This document shows, piece by piece, positions 33,435-42,143 of a stretch of DNA of 46,635 nt (the first letter of the stretch is position 1; every line of letters starts with the position of its first letter). The position numbers were made by a program, and so were the translations under genes. This stretch comes from Octopus sinensis (lineage: Eukaryota): assembly GCF_006345805.1 (NCBI RefSeq), contig NW_021834599.1, forward strand, positions 1 to 46,635. Reading direction: 5' to 3'. The notes under the pieces are model-generated. The model saw only the letters and a program-made list of their open reading frames with translations, was not told the origin of the DNA and did no database searches.

Positions 33435-33677
33435 CAGAGAGAGAGATAGAGAGACAGACAGACAGATAGATAGATAGATAGACAGAGATAGAGATAGAGA
33501 GATAGACAGACAGACAGACAGATAGATAGATAGATATGTTTCTATTAGCCACACAGGGCTGCACACAGATAGAACAAATTACAAGGTAGAGCTTTTCTTT
33601 TGAAGGTTTAAAAAAAAAAAAAAAAAAGGAAGGGGGAGTTTCGATCAAAAGGGATCGTAAAAGGAGAGAAAGAGGAC

Positions 33678-33734
<57 letters not shown>

Positions 33735-33766
33735 TGACAGAGAGAGAGATAGAGAGACAGACAGAC

Positions 33767-33825
<59 letters not shown>

Positions 33826-33836
33826 CAGAGAGAGAT

Positions 33837-33916
<80 letters not shown>

Positions 33917-34000
33917 TGACAGAGAGAGAGATAGACAGACAGACAGACAGACAGATAGATAGATAGATAGATAGATAGACAGAGAGAGAGATAGAGAGAC

Positions 34001-37100: not shown

Positions 37101-40100
37101 CTATCTATGGCTAGTGCTTTGCTGTACCTAATCGCTTCTGCTTTTACTGCTCTCTTGAGGGCAAACCACCATTTGTTGTTGATGATGGCTCCCGTCAAAG
37201 CCCTCTTTACTAGTGTGCTAATCCGGTCTCTGAAAACTTGTCTCGATGGGAAAGACGCGTTTAGTTTCCAGTATCGGGACCCTGCTAAGTGTCTTACCTA
37301 AGTCTAGCGTACATGTCACAAGTTTGTGATCCGTGTAGCTGACTATGTGGAATTGTGGACATCCTATGCTATCTCTATCTACTGTCCTACACAGTATCCT
37401 ATCTAGATACGATCTCGACGACCCGATGCGGTTGCTCCATGTCCACGTTGGCGCATTCGGGTGGTCTAGTCGGTAACCTGTCAGACAGTTGAAAGCGTCT
37501 GAGCAGGTCTCTGAGGCATTTGCATCCCCGTCTATTCCTATCTCTACCCACGTAGTCTACATGCGTGTCCAAGGTAGCATTCCAATCCCCCACTAAGAGT
37601 AAGGACGAGACGTTCCCAAGAAAACTTCTAGACGTTGAAAGAAATCCGCCCGACCTGTTAAGGGCGGTGCTCGTAAACTGATACGAGTCGAAAGCAAAAG
37701 CGCACCCATTGCTGCCGTCGAAATCCAGGACGACCAGTCTCCCTCCGGGTCTACGAATATTGTCCTCCTACTTTGAGATCCAGACTCTTGTGAAAAAGTA
37801 CCGCGGTGCCACTACCGCCCATTCTCGGCAGACAGGGGGAAAAATAAATGTTGAATTGTCCGCCAAACATGGTCTTTAGGGCCCGCGGATTGTGGAGTCT
37901 GGTCTCGCTGATGGCTATGATTTCTAACTTATGTGACTTTATGTCATTTAAGAGGTACCCTTGTTTCAAGGGGACCCCAAGCCACGCGCATTTACACAAC
38001 CAATCTTGATCATAGTTCTAATGAATTAGAATACAGAGGGTTACTTACTGCTCGAAAGTTTTTGCTTTCTCCTCGTTGGTTTGTCCTCGAGAAGATCCAG
38101 TACAGTTCTTTGTGAGATATTTTTGGCATTTACCAACCGCACTGGGGAAAATGCCTTTGAGTGTGTGGTGCAGACTTTTGGAGATGTGTAATATTTTGAT
38201 GTGGTCTGGTGGTGTTGGTATGGGTGATTGTTTGTTTTGATGTCATCTTCTGTTATGTTTGTTTTGATTGGATGTATTCCATCAAATTTGTGTTTTTGGT
38301 GTCTATGGCTGTGAGCATGTTTGCTGTATATGTTTTTCTGGTGTTGGTGTGGCTGTTGTTTGCGTTGGGTTTTGAAATGTCTTCGGGAGATGTATTCCCC
38401 CTGCTTTGTTCGTGTTTGCATTTGGTTTGGGTGTTTCTGCTCTTTATTTTCCTTTTTTTGTAGCTATTTGCCATTCCTCACTGGTTTCGTCTTCCGACGA
38501 AATTTCTGAGGAATCAGAAGGGGGTAGGGGTATGTTGTGGGCTTCTATGTATGTCTGGTAAGTGTGTGTTGTTGTTTTCGTTGTTGTTGGTTGTTGAGTG
38601 TTTGTGTGTGTTGAGTGCGGTATAAGGGATGGGGGATCAGTTTGTGTGTTGTTTTCTTTGTTTTTCTGTTCCTTTGGGTTTGCTGTTGTTGGTGGTGTGT
38701 GTTGGTATTTTTCCAGGTGTTGAGTGGTTTTGGTTGATGACGGATTAGCTTGGTGTGCTTCTCTTGTCGTCTTCGTGTTGATGGTGGTGTGTGGGTAGTA
38801 GAGCTTTTTTTCCGGAGTGCTTGGTTGTGGTAGTGGTTGTTGTTGTTGCTCTTGGTGTGCAGTGGTTGGGCACGTCTTTTTCAAGTGTGTTTCGCTTCCA
38901 CACAAATAGCAGCGTGGTCGCCTGCCCTCTACCACTATATAGAGTTTGTAGCCTCCTGGCAGTTCTATAGTGGTGGGTATCTTCTCTCTTGCTGCTTCAT
39001 CCAATTGAAGCAGGAATTCGATTGATTTGCCCACAGTCTTTCTCTCCTAGAACCGCGATTCCCAGGATGTTTGTCTCTGACATTTCAAAGCAGATGGCAG
39101 AGACCAACCATTGTGTTTCGACATCAAATGGTATGTTTTTATTTGGACTTTCGTGACCCTTTTGTTTAAATAGACTGGTATCATTACCAAGTCGTCCGAA
39201 TGTAGCTCCAATGTGGAAAAACGTTTTGCTAAACTTTCGTTGAGGAAACGTACTTGGACTGTACCAAATTTGTTTCCCCAGCCCAGCTGATATATTCCTT
39301 GGAGTCCCATGCAGGACGAAGGCATTTTTCGATTTTTTCCTGCGGTGCATTTTTCTGTTCTTTGTTTTTTTGTTTATTACTTTATAAATTATTGTTTTTT
39401 TGTGTGTTTTCCACAATGTGTTGTGGAATTGAAGTGCAATTTGTCTCCTTCTTTGGAGAAGAGTGCCTTTGTGCGGTTTATCTCTTGTGTGGTGAATGTT
39501 ACAATTGTTCTTTTTTGTTTTGTTACGTCCGCAAAATTCATTTTGAATTTGGCAGAGAAGTGTTAATTGTGGCAGTGTTAATTGAAGTCATGGTAGTGGT
39601 GTTGGTGTTGGCGGTACTAGCAGCAGAAGGCTTGGATGTAGCATTTGACGTCGTAGTAGTGGTGTTGGTTGGGCGGTGTTGTCTTTGGTAGGCGGCTTTG
39701 TGCCAATTTCGTTGTTGTTGTTGTTGGTGGTGATGGTGGTGGTGCTGGCATTCATTTTTTCGTTTGTATTCATTTTGAAATCCCTTTCTCTGTCCCTTTA
39801 TCATCAACAAGTGGTGTGGGGAGTGAGGGGAAATCTAAGTTAATGTCTTTGGTCGCGGCGATGGTGAATGCGACGTTAGATTTGTTGTTGTTGTTGTTGG
39901 TGGTGGTGATGGTGGTGACAGCGGTGTTCACGCTGCGATGTTTAGCAGCTAGTGGTAGCAATAGTGTTTTGCTACCGTTCTGCATGACTGGCGGGCTAGC
40001 CACGTGGTTTCTAGTTGCCATTTTCAAAATGAAAAATGGCTAAAAAACCCACGAAAGTTTTGAAAGTTTTTTTGTAATTTCGCCCATACAGGGGCGGAAT

Positions 40101-40245
40101 TCTACGTGAATAATTCTCAGGTTTTTTAGTGAATGAAATTGCACGACGATTAAAACAAAATATTTGACAACAAGCAGTTTTAAACATGTAAAAGTGGCCA
40201 ACTTACGTGGAGCCGATATGACTAGCATCCGTCCATTGTGAGAGC

Positions 40246-40288
<43 letters not shown>

Positions 40289-40413
40289 GAGATAGACAGA
40301 GAGAGAGATAGAGAGACAGACAGACAGATAGAGAGATAGATAGATAGACAGAGAGAGAGATAGAGAGACAGACAGACATATAGATAGACAGAGAGAGAGA
40401 TAGAGAGACAGAC

Positions 40414-40446
<33 letters not shown>

Positions 40447-42143
40447 TGTTTCTTTATTAGCCACACAGGGCTGCACACAGATAGAACAAATTACAAGGTA
40501 GAGCTTTTCTTTTGAAGGTTTAAAAAAAAAAAAAAAGGAAGGGGGAGTTTCGATCAAAAGGGATCGTAAAAGGAGAGAAAGAGGACAAAAAAAGGGGGGT
40601 TAAAAAAAAGGGGGAGAGGAAAAAAAAAATTTGATCAATAGGGATCGTTATCACAGAAATGTCAATATGAAGTGTAAAGGGGAGGACAGGTGAGGTTTAC
40701 CCGTGGAAAGAAAAGCCTACGGAAAAGATAACGGTAACCTCGGTCAATGGAGTCACATGTTATATTTCTTTTTTTTTTTTTTTGCAAATAAGCAACTCTC
40801 TGTTTTCAATTTCTGGGTTCATAGGATCATGCTCAAGGTGGCTTCGTCATTCATACGTGCCATTCTTGCTATATTCACCCATCTTTTTTAAAACATTCGC
40901 TAGACAAAACTTGCCTCTCTACTCTCACTTTCCTTTTCAAGTGGTACTTGAAGAAGTTGATGAGAGATTGACCAGAGAGGAAAGTGTTTGTCTCCAATCC
41001 TTTCAGACGCGTCCACCAGATACATTCTTTCGCCATAGCCACAAGGATGATGAAAATAGCTCTTCCTTCCCGTTTGAAGGAGGGAGGCGTGACAATATTA
41101 ACGATAGACTCAGCTGATAAACCAACTCGTCCCACACGTGACAGCAGTTGTTCGACATAAGCCCACAGGTCGGAAATTGTTGGACACTGCACGAGTGCGT
41201 GCAGAACGGTTTCGTCGCTCTGACCGCATCTCGGGCAGGTCGGCCCCGTGTTTCTCGAGCCGTGTCTGTAGAGCTTATCCCGAACGGGTAGCGCTTCTCG
41301 GTAGCACTGCCAGGCCAGGGATCTCTGGAAGTTGTCCATGGGCCCTGGCCCGAAAGTCGTCCTGAACAGGCGGGTCAGGTACTCCTCGTCGACGTCCAGG
41401 TTCGCCCCGAGCTCGTCTTCGTACCTCCCCTCCACTAAACCCCTATAGAATGCTTTGGTTGTGTTGAAGTCACTCAAGGTCGACCCAGGACGGCAGAGTT
41501 GCTTGAGAGCAACGCGACACTCGCGGTGCCATTCGCCCTTCCTCGGCCTCTTTTTGATCCACGACTGCAGTTCGGTCATGGAGACGAGCTGCGGGAAAGC
41601 GTGCCTCACAAACGGCGACCACACCTGTTCACCGTCGTCTACATAGAGCCAGAGATGTCGCAGTCTCAGCGCGTGTCTGCGCATCATCAACCACGGCATA
41701 CCCAGCCCTCCTTTTAACGGGTGTTGACAGCAAATGGATCACCTGACCATCGGGACGCATCCTTTCCACAAGAAGCGAAAGAGGATGCGTTGTAGTTTGG
41801 TGCTGGTAGGGTCGGGACAAGGTACGACGGTCAGGCGGTAGTAGATGACGGACGCGATGTACGTGTTCGCCACCTCCGCCCGACATTTTAGGGACAGTTT
41901 CCTCTTGGCCCATTGCCGGGCGAGAGTGACCACCCTACTCGTTATCTCGTTCCAGTTCTTCTCCACTTGGAGGTCTGGACCAAACCAGACCCCGAGCAAC
42001 TCAACCGGGCCGTCGGTCCAGCGTCCCACGACGGAGGCGCTGGTGGACGGCATGGGCTTGCTTCTCCAGGTGCTGAGTCGCAAGCCCACTGACTTTTCCC
42101 GGTTGATTTTTGCTCCTGTCACCGCTTCGTAGTTTTTGTCTAT

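What the first reader, a model, noticed from the sequence alone, without database searches (positions are those of the whole stretch)
33536..42137. Tx1-clade retrotransposon apparently targeting (GATA)n/(TATC)n microsatellites
Seen: three same-orientation copies with different 5' ends (145 bp, about 6 kb, 1.7 kb). Each has GATA repeats on both sides and the same 3' junction register (...GATAGATA|TGTTTCT or TAGATA|TGTTTCT). Different truncation points suggest independent insertions. Known: Tx1-clade families are often sequence-specific (Kibi at TC repeats, Koshi at TTC repeats, Keno at U2 snRNA, Mutsu at 5S rDNA). I do not recall a GATA-specific cephalopod family, but could not search. The copies are young enough to reconstruct the endonuclease.
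Basis: partly seen in the sequence, partly recalled or inferred. Interest (0 to 1): 0.75.

Follow-up and report, generated by a model that had tools for sequence, protein, structure and literature searches.

The report
LINE retrotransposon homing to GATA repeats
Three copies of one jumping gene (a LINE retrotransposon) sit in the same direction and the same phase inside a single GATA-repeat array of a likely octopus genome, likely because the element seeks out this repeat, which would add a new target motif and a new host group to a habit already known from Tx1-type elements of fish and crocodilians.

Summary
Observation confirmed. Three minus-strand copies (143, 6,045, 1,697 bp) of one APE-type LINE share the same 3' end. 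All lie in pure GATA runs of one 2.1-kb compound array, with (TATC)n on both sides in element sense. The long copy has a 5' UTR, an ORF1 with a CCHC knuckle, an ORF2 (endonuclease, RT, zinc finger), AATAAA six bases before the junction and no poly(A). Its nearest named relatives are from Argonauta hians. Independent insertion is favoured over local duplication: junction flanks are no more alike than other array stretches, the two long copies differ by 1.9% with dN/dS 0.42 (p about 0.04), and both truncation points open straight into 10 or more pure units. Best reading: target-primed reverse transcription at GATA^GATA in long runs, likely with a 16-bp or shorter duplication hidden in the repeat and read-through (UAUC)n helping to prime. 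Not tested: flanks of other genomic copies (no genome or read data obtained) and Tx1 membership against named references. The evidence is three insertions at one locus. No TATC/GATA-specific family turned up in eight paper searches; Repbase and Dfam were not searchable. Verdict: probably a new member of the microsatellite-targeting Tx1 kind.

The parts
32783..33536 (.). Array segment A: compound (GATA)n runs with GACA/GAGA spacers; 3' flank of copy 1, ending in 4 pure GATA units
33537..33679 (-). Copy 1: 143-bp 5'-truncated copy (end of the 3' UTR only)
33680..34200 (.). Array segment B: 5' flank of copy 1 (13 pure units) and 3' flank of copy 2 (4 units, one with a 1-base deletion)
34201..40245 (-). 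Copy 2: apparently full-length element, 6,045 bp
34201..34570 (-). 3' UTR, 370 bp; AATAAA at 34207-34212, six bases before the junction; no poly(A) tail
34571..38013 (-). ORF2, about 1,146 codons: APE endonuclease, RT (YADD at 35954), C-terminal CCHC zinc motif (34936-34989); 13 single-base frameshifts and no in-frame stop against either of two relatives
37295..38013 (-). APE endonuclease domain: NARG, SET, VY, GDWN, YLD and TDH motifs all present across frames; hairpin loop of about L1 length at 37401-37445
38014..40021 (-). ORF1 region (ATG at 40021), frameshifted; low-complexity ends; Cx2Cx4Hx4C knuckle at 38870-38911
40022..40245 (-). 5' UTR, about 224 bp; the 5' end is inferred from the start of the repeat
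40246..40446 (.). Array segment C: 5' flank of copy 2 (10 pure units) and 3' flank of copy 3 (8 units)
40447..42143 (-). Copy 3: 5'-truncated in late RT; 6 extra bases (42138-42143) at the 5' junction; one premature TGA at a CpG site (41739-41741) and one frameshift in a homopolymer
42144..42782 (.). Array segment D: 5' flank of copy 3 (10 pure units); no element lies beyond it, so it is not the tail of another copy

Best explanation
This is a two-ORF LINE with an APE-type endonuclease, three copies of which interrupt one GATA array in the same direction and 3' phase, likely by three separate target-primed reverse transcription events aimed at long (TATC)n runs. Shown: the anatomy, the shared 3' end, the different 5' ends, pure repeat on both sides of every copy, no poly(A) tail. 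Inferred steps: (1) the endonuclease nicks the GATA strand between units (5'-GATA^GATA) in runs of about 10 or more units; (2) because AATAAA lies only six bases before the junction, the RNA would run on into the flanking (UAUC)n, which pairs with the nicked ...GATA-3' end and fixes the precise, poly(A)-less junction; (3) synthesis often stops early, giving 5'-truncated copies; (4) the second nick gives a duplication of 0-4 repeat units, invisible inside the repeat, with 12-16 bp fitting best. I put independent insertion at about 0.85, a family-wide preference for (TATC)n at about 0.75, and this joint endonuclease-plus-pairing mechanism at about 0.6.
For: Junctions 3 of 3 in the same 3' register and 3 of 3 with pure (TATC)n upstream. 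No copy in 3,969 bp of other simple repeats or about 32.7 kb of other sequence. Array stretches abutting the three 3' junctions are no more alike than register-matched array stretches: 9 of 9 comparisons have 10-89% of the null scoring at least as well. Copies 2 and 3 differ at 24 of 1,277 coding bases: 10 synonymous of 294 sites, 14 non-synonymous of 981, ratio 0.42, Fisher p 0.046, binomial p 0.033, as expected for copies from different active sources. A random deletion breakpoint is followed by 10 or more pure units at 130 of 1,935 array positions, p 0.0045 for two. Rare variant units are shared by the outer segments A and D, as in one older array that was interrupted. A duplication longer than 4 units would put GTCT units at the 5' junctions of copies 1 and 2, which is not seen; 4 units give original runs of 13, 10 and 14, matching common run lengths. 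All APE catalytic motifs are present. Precedent: Kibi (TC)n, Koshi (TTC)n, crocodilian Tx1 (TTCC)n/(TTTC)n (PMC4494074); read-through annealing aids R2Ol (PMC6530143).
Against: Three insertions at one locus; no other genomic copy with flanks was seen. The dN/dS signal is marginal (non-CpG changes only: 7 of 16, p 0.054) and rests on a sequence with probable consensus errors. Microsatellites mutate fast, which weakens the flank comparison. A 10-kb tandem duplication of about five units at 11349-21585 shows that local duplication happens in this region. Even with a 4-unit duplication, uniform choice among GATA^GATA sites gives the observed run lengths with p only 0.048, so a further preference for long runs has to be assumed. 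No target-site duplication can be seen directly. The endonuclease hairpin loop is of about L1 length, not extended as described for Tx1L (PMC1950540), so it gives no hint of strict specificity.
Confidence: 0.6

Rival explanations
1. Priming-only targeting: the endonuclease is relaxed and nicks many sites, but only nicks leaving a ...GATA-3' end pair with a (UAUC)n RNA tail and get extended, so insertions pile up in GATA runs, and part of each 3' flank is a copied tail.
For: Predicts the same junction pattern. No poly(A), and AATAAA close to the end. Repanas et al. note that RNA-target pairing may select among nicked sites (PMC1950540 passage). The hairpin loop is not extended.
Against: Short 3' runs (4, 4, 8 units) with longer 5' runs (13, 10, 10) show no added tail length and point to a requirement upstream of the nick, which pairing alone does not give. 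In known Tx1 families specificity is ascribed mainly to the endonuclease (PMC4494074 passage).
Confidence: 0.17
2. One insertion, then local tandem duplication and deletion by recombination or slippage within the array, gave three copies.
For: The copies are adjacent and co-oriented. The 143 bp of copy 1 match the others apart from homopolymer length and a 2-bp gap. Tandem duplications exist 12 kb away.
Against: Flanks are not co-duplicated; dN/dS 0.42 between copies 2 and 3; both losses are at the 5' side with an intact 3' end and open on 10 or more pure units (p 0.0045); 6 extra bases at the copy 3 junction.
Confidence: 0.09
3. The family is not sequence-specific; this array is a local hotspot or a safe haven where unspecific insertions accumulate.
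For: Passive accumulation near CA repeats is proposed for Waldo-A/B (PMC3812793 passage). The window was picked because of this cluster.
Against: Same strand and same 3' phase in 3 of 3; none in the equally long (ATC)n array nearby or in unique DNA.
Confidence: 0.09
4. The cluster is an assembly artefact: copies from different loci joined through their GATA arrays in a poorly polished long-read contig.
For: Copy 2 has 13 single-base frameshifts and no stop in ORF2, a pattern typical of consensus error.
Against: Segments A to D show a continuous set of variant units. Joins through the arrays would still need every copy to sit in GATA repeats at its own locus, so the targeting claim would survive.
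Confidence: 0.05

Closest known systems
Microsatellite-specific Tx1 families: Kibi (TC)n and Koshi (TTC)n of teleosts; crocodilian Tx1-1_Crp, Tx1-5_Crp, Tx1-6_Crp, Tx1-1_Gav, Tx1-2/3/5/8_AMi in (TTCC)n or (TTTC)n (PMC4494074, passages and section 15; PMC3812793, passages)
   Same: APE-type L1/Tx1-like LINE found inside a short tandem repeat. The unit here, TATC, differs by one base from TTTC and ends in TC like the others; that those units are written in element sense is my assumption.
   Different: Target unit (TATC)n; mollusc host; relationship to these families not tested, as no named reference sequence was available.
Tx1L of Xenopus laevis, Keno (U2 snRNA), Tx1-Mar (PMC4494074, PMC4640811 passages)
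   Same: APE endonuclease, target preference, ORF1 with a CCHC knuckle (type I-like ORF1s are said to be consistent with the Tx1 clade in PMC5203782).
   Different: Their targets are a transposon or an RNA gene, not a microsatellite. The hairpin loop here is of about L1 length, whereas that of Tx1L is described as more extended (PMC1950540).
Human LINE-1 ORF2p (PDB 9k6g, 8sxt, 8uw3; endonuclease 1vyb)
   Same: Best solved-structure match over endonuclease and RT for a profile of the element's relatives (E 6e-95, against 6e-29 for R2); same catalytic motifs.
   Different: L1 ends in poly(A), primes at T-tracts and has a Transposase_22 ORF1; this element has no poly(A) and has a CCHC knuckle in ORF1.
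Unnamed octopod relatives: Argonauta hians GAB1606090.1 (P0189) and P0241; unnamed P0001, P0181; O. vulgaris 'L1-Tx1' repeat class (PMC13282606: 80 families, 13 recently active)
   Same: One RT clade with the window element (SH-aLRT 99); 54-67% identity over ORF2 pieces.
   Different: Different families; their flanks could not be read; the O. vulgaris paper and its supplement give no target information for L1-Tx1.

Membership tests
APE-type non-LTR retrotransposon, L1 group | ORF2 with N-terminal APE endonuclease and its catalytic motifs | tested here: met
   tblastn and motif scan; Exo_endo_phos on a window fragment E 0.0025, below cut-off, and on the intact relative P0189 E 4e-11
APE-type non-LTR retrotransposon, L1 group | RT domain with YADD, closest to L1 among solved structures | tested here: met
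   RVT_1 E 2e-18; profile of relatives hits L1 ORF2p at 6e-95 and R2 at 6e-29
APE-type non-LTR retrotransposon, L1 group | C-terminal zinc motif (zf-RVT) and two ORFs | tested here: met
   zf-RVT E 6e-8 and 3e-8; ORF1 and ORF2 starts
APE-type non-LTR retrotransposon, L1 group | 5'-truncated copies with a shared 3' end, no LTRs | tested here: met
APE-type non-LTR retrotransposon, L1 group | Target-site duplication | tested here: inconclusive
   Hidden in the repeat; bounded at 0-4 units
Tx1 clade | RT phylogeny grouping with named Tx1 references (Tx1L, Keno, Kibi, Koshi, Mutsu) | not testable with these tools
   No protein named as Tx1 among 24 clusters looked up or the 120 rows listed of 540; the tree holds no named Tx1 or L1 reference
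Tx1 clade | ORF1 with RRM and CCHC knuckle rather than Transposase_22 | tested here: inconclusive
   Cx2Cx4Hx4C present; zf-CCHC E 0.023, below cut-off; Atlas lead 0.85; no Transposase_22 or RRM hit on four frameshifted fragments; no intact ORF1 relative found
Tx1 clade | Target preference (more than 20% of genomic flanks of one type, criterion of PMC4494074) | not testable with these tools
   3 of 3 in the window; no genome held and no close loci in the collections
Kibi / Koshi / crocodilian (TTTC)n families | Target unit TC, TTC, TTCC or TTTC | tested here: not met
   Target unit is TATC; not filed as one of these families, though it seems to work like them
Kibi / Koshi / crocodilian (TTTC)n families | Phylogenetic position within their branch | not testable with these tools
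   No reference sequences available

The most novel reading that the evidence does not exclude
An active, high-copy octopod LINE lineage evolved (TATC)n specificity independently of the vertebrate Kibi/Koshi branch, with an L1-length hairpin loop, selecting runs of ten or more units and locking the junction by read-through (UAUC)n pairing. Copy 2 is intact in the animal and its frameshifts are assembly errors. The element would be the first described GATA-repeat-specific retrotransposon, a natural partner to TTTC-specific enzymes for asking how one base of specificity is switched, and a force that breaks up and reshapes cephalopod GATA arrays.
Probability: 0.2. Interest if true: 0.65.

Novelty: new member of a known kind. 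Interest (0 to 1): 0.4.

Why it matters
Microsatellite targeting by Tx1-type LINEs is known for TC, TTC, TTCC and TTTC units in fish and crocodilians. A TATC-specific family in an octopod would extend the target series and the host range, and give a close comparison for how APE endonucleases change specificity. It would also matter for annotation and for markers: GATA microsatellites in these genomes would often be flanked by the same element end. It is not a new mechanism.

Tried and rejected
No genome is held for the window, and laying contigs of public runs on the element returned no data, so the flanks of other genomic copies stay unexamined. An exact 24-base pattern of the 3' end found 0 matches in viral, metagenome and prokaryote genome contigs. 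Protein scans found no relative in viral or genome contigs. The metagenome scan gave 18 loci at only 24-35% identity, with no TATC/GATA arrays; too distant to inform. The ORF1 knuckle search scored 0 of 15 candidates. No RNA holder was listed, which says nothing about expression. No structure model was obtained, so RRM domains in ORF1 and the loop shape remain unmodelled. The last 126 nt in sense fold no better than shuffles (z 0.19): no support for a structured 3' end there. No Rfam family in the window. Kojima and Fujiwara 2004 is not held; the supplement and Fig. 3 of PMC4494074 could not be seen and may list further microsatellite targets. Earlier notes of this scan had nothing on this element or genome. 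Rejected: that the flanking repeats are only tails of upstream copies, since segment D has no element beyond it. Rejected: that copy 2 is an old decayed copy, since it has 13 frameshifts but no stop and is 97% identical to copy 3.
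Full report
What is there. BLAST of 34200-40250 against the window returns the element itself and two more copies, 40446-42137 (97.2%) and 33536-33679 (94.5%), and nothing else apart from short internal repeats. In element sense (minus strand) the copies are 143, 6,045 and 1,697 bp and share the same 3' end. All three lie inside one compound array, 32783-42782 less the elements, 2,115 bp in all, made of (GATA)n runs of 2-17 units separated by a recurring GACA/GAGA spacer. 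In element sense each 3' junction reads GAAACA|TATCTA and each 5' junction is preceded by pure (TATC)n. The pure runs are 4, 4 (one unit with a 1-base deletion) and 8 units on the 3' side and 13, 10 and 10 on the 5' side. The 5' register is exact for copy 3, which has six extra bases (ATAGAC) at the joint, ambiguous by one shared T for copy 1, and cannot be fixed for copy 2.

More than chance? The array is 5.5% of the 38,750 non-element bases, so two further random insertions would both land in it with p 0.003. Among simple repeats alone, three would with p 0.042, the other 3,969 bp including a 2.3-kb (ATC)n array 1.2 kb away with no copy. The window was chosen for this cluster, so these figures are generous.

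Anatomy. Copy 2 has a 5' UTR of about 224 bp, ORF1 from ATG 40021, ORF2 from ATG 38013 to TGA 34571, and a 370-bp 3' UTR whose AATAAA lies six bases before the junction, with no poly(A). ORF2 carries the APE motifs NARG, SET, VY, GDWN, YLD and TDH, an RT with YADD (RVT_1 E 2e-18) and a zf-RVT motif (E 6e-8). A profile of six related ORF2 proteins matches human L1 ORF2p at 6e-95 and R2 proteins at 6e-29. ORF1 has a Cx2Cx4Hx4C knuckle (zf-CCHC E 0.023, under the cut-off); RRM domains could not be shown on the frameshifted pieces. A frameshift-aware alignment to either of two relatives gives 13 single-base frameshifts and no stop in copy 2, seven of them in the endonuclease against P0189. Copy 3 has one stop at a CpG site and one homopolymer frameshift. 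Positions are approximate because the relatives are only 54-63% identical, and the method can hide a stop behind a frameshift. Many indels with few substitutions suggest consensus errors of a long-read assembly (inference), so copy 2 may be intact in the animal.

Relatives and host. The nearest named proteins are from Argonauta hians, and a gene model of Octopus bimaculoides begins with a piece about 80% identical to ORF2. An RT tree of 45 rows was built from 38 hand-picked proteins of the 313 held, 5 of 18 loci and 2 window rows; P0268 and L014 were dropped as too short. In it the element groups with two Argonauta proteins and two unnamed ones (SH-aLRT 99), next to a large unnamed clade (SH-aLRT 100). 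The tree has no named Tx1 or L1 reference, so it does not test clade membership. 20 of 24 listed sequencing runs, from 10 studies and 6 organism labels, hold 60-75% of the sampled words of ORF2, among them contig sets of only 5-6 million letters. One may be the source sample. I infer a young, high-copy family shared by several related species.

Independent insertions or local duplication? (a) The array stretches abutting the three 3' junctions (60, 120 and 200 bp) are no more alike than register-matched stretches of the array: in 9 of 9 comparisons 10-89% of the null scores as well. (b) Copies 2 and 3 differ at 24 of 1,277 coding bases, 10 synonymous of 294 sites and 14 non-synonymous of 981, ratio 0.42, Fisher p 0.046; without CpG changes 7 of 16, p 0.054. 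This is what copies from different active sources would show, but the signal is marginal. (c) A deletion ending at random in the array is followed at once by ten or more pure units at 130 of 1,935 positions, p 0.0045 for two. (d) Rare variant units are shared by the outer segments A and D, and by neighbours C and D, as in one older array. Against: microsatellites mutate fast, and a five-unit tandem duplication lies at 11349-21585.

Mechanism. By the established TPRT scheme, the strand that primes is the GATA strand, nicked between units. The junction has no poly(A) although AATAAA sits six bases upstream. Since cleavage normally falls 10-30 bases past that signal (my own knowledge), the RNA would carry a few UAUC units that can pair with the nicked end. 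Such annealing of read-through RNA raises R2Ol insertion (PMC6530143, passage), and pairing is suggested as a filter on L1 nicks (PMC1950540, passage). A duplication of more than four units would place GTCT units at the 5' junctions of copies 1 and 2, which is not seen. Four units give original runs of 13, 10 and 14, common lengths in the array, and fit best (p 0.048 against below 0.0001 for no duplication under uniform site choice), though a preference for long runs is still suggested. The hairpin loop that shapes target choice in L1-type endonucleases is of about L1 length here and differs among relatives; that gives no sign of strict specificity, so the share of endonuclease and of pairing is open.

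Comparison with what is known. Kibi and Koshi insert in (TC)n and (TTC)n, and eight crocodilian Tx1 families prefer (TTCC)n or (TTTC)n (PMC4494074, passages and section 15). A review lists ACAY, AC, TC, TTC and TAA targets and no GATA target (PMC3812793, passages). Togen targets (TG)n (PMC4640811, passages). Type I-like ORF1s in non-mammalian animals are tied to the Tx1 clade (PMC5203782, passages), and Tx1 is placed within the L1 clade (PMC3747384, passages). O. vulgaris has 80 L1-Tx1 families, 13 recently active, with no target given (PMC13282606, passages and a term search of its one supplement). Eight searches for a TATC/GATA-specific or cephalopod target-specific family found none (in only 20 of 26 and 20 of 57 papers were listed, judged by title and abstract start). 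Repbase, Dfam, Kojima and Fujiwara 2004 and the figure and supplement of PMC4494074 were not seen and may already name such a family.

Verdict. The element works like the microsatellite-specific Tx1 families; it is an L1-group APE LINE by test, probably Tx1 by ORF1 knuckle and habit, but membership was not testable. It is not one of the known families, as its target unit differs. The genome-wide count of flanks, the decisive test, could not be run. New member of a known kind; interest 0.4.

Noticed in passing
window 43958-46293: A 2.3-kb degenerate (ATC)n array with no copy of the element, flanked by a 64-bp direct repeat (43890-43953 and 46340-46403, 92% identical).
   Followed up: partly
window 11349-21585: Tandem duplication of about five units spaced 2.1-2.5 kb, 91-96% identical, without a convincing ORF.
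   Followed up: partly
window 23512-24840 (minus): A 442-codon open frame of an unrelated LINE (RVT_1 E 2e-27, about 26% identical to this element's RT group); used only as tree outgroup.
   Followed up: partly
P0004 residues 1-42: An Octopus bimaculoides RhoGEF10-like gene model starts with about 42 residues some 80% identical to this ORF2: a mis-annotated or exonised piece of a related element.
   Followed up: no
window 38010-38013: The ORF2 ATG overlaps a TGA that closes one upstream frame (ATGA); it may be a stop-start junction, but the true last frame of ORF1 is uncertain because of frameshifts.
   Followed up: no
window 32783-42782: The target is a higher-order repeat: GATA runs separated by a recurring spacer of about 30 bp built of GACA and GA units; insertions fall only in the pure runs, which are 53% of the array.
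   Followed up: yes
window 42138-42143: The six extra bases at the 5' joint of copy 3 also occur on the opposite strand of the array, so they may come from a short template switch; a 4-base deletion in the element's own sequence explains them about as well.
   Followed up: partly
P0002, P0003, P0204, P0215 and relatives: A large unnamed sister clade, 38-48% identical to P0001, with clusters of up to 385-732 members in public assemblies; its host and targets are unknown.
   Followed up: no
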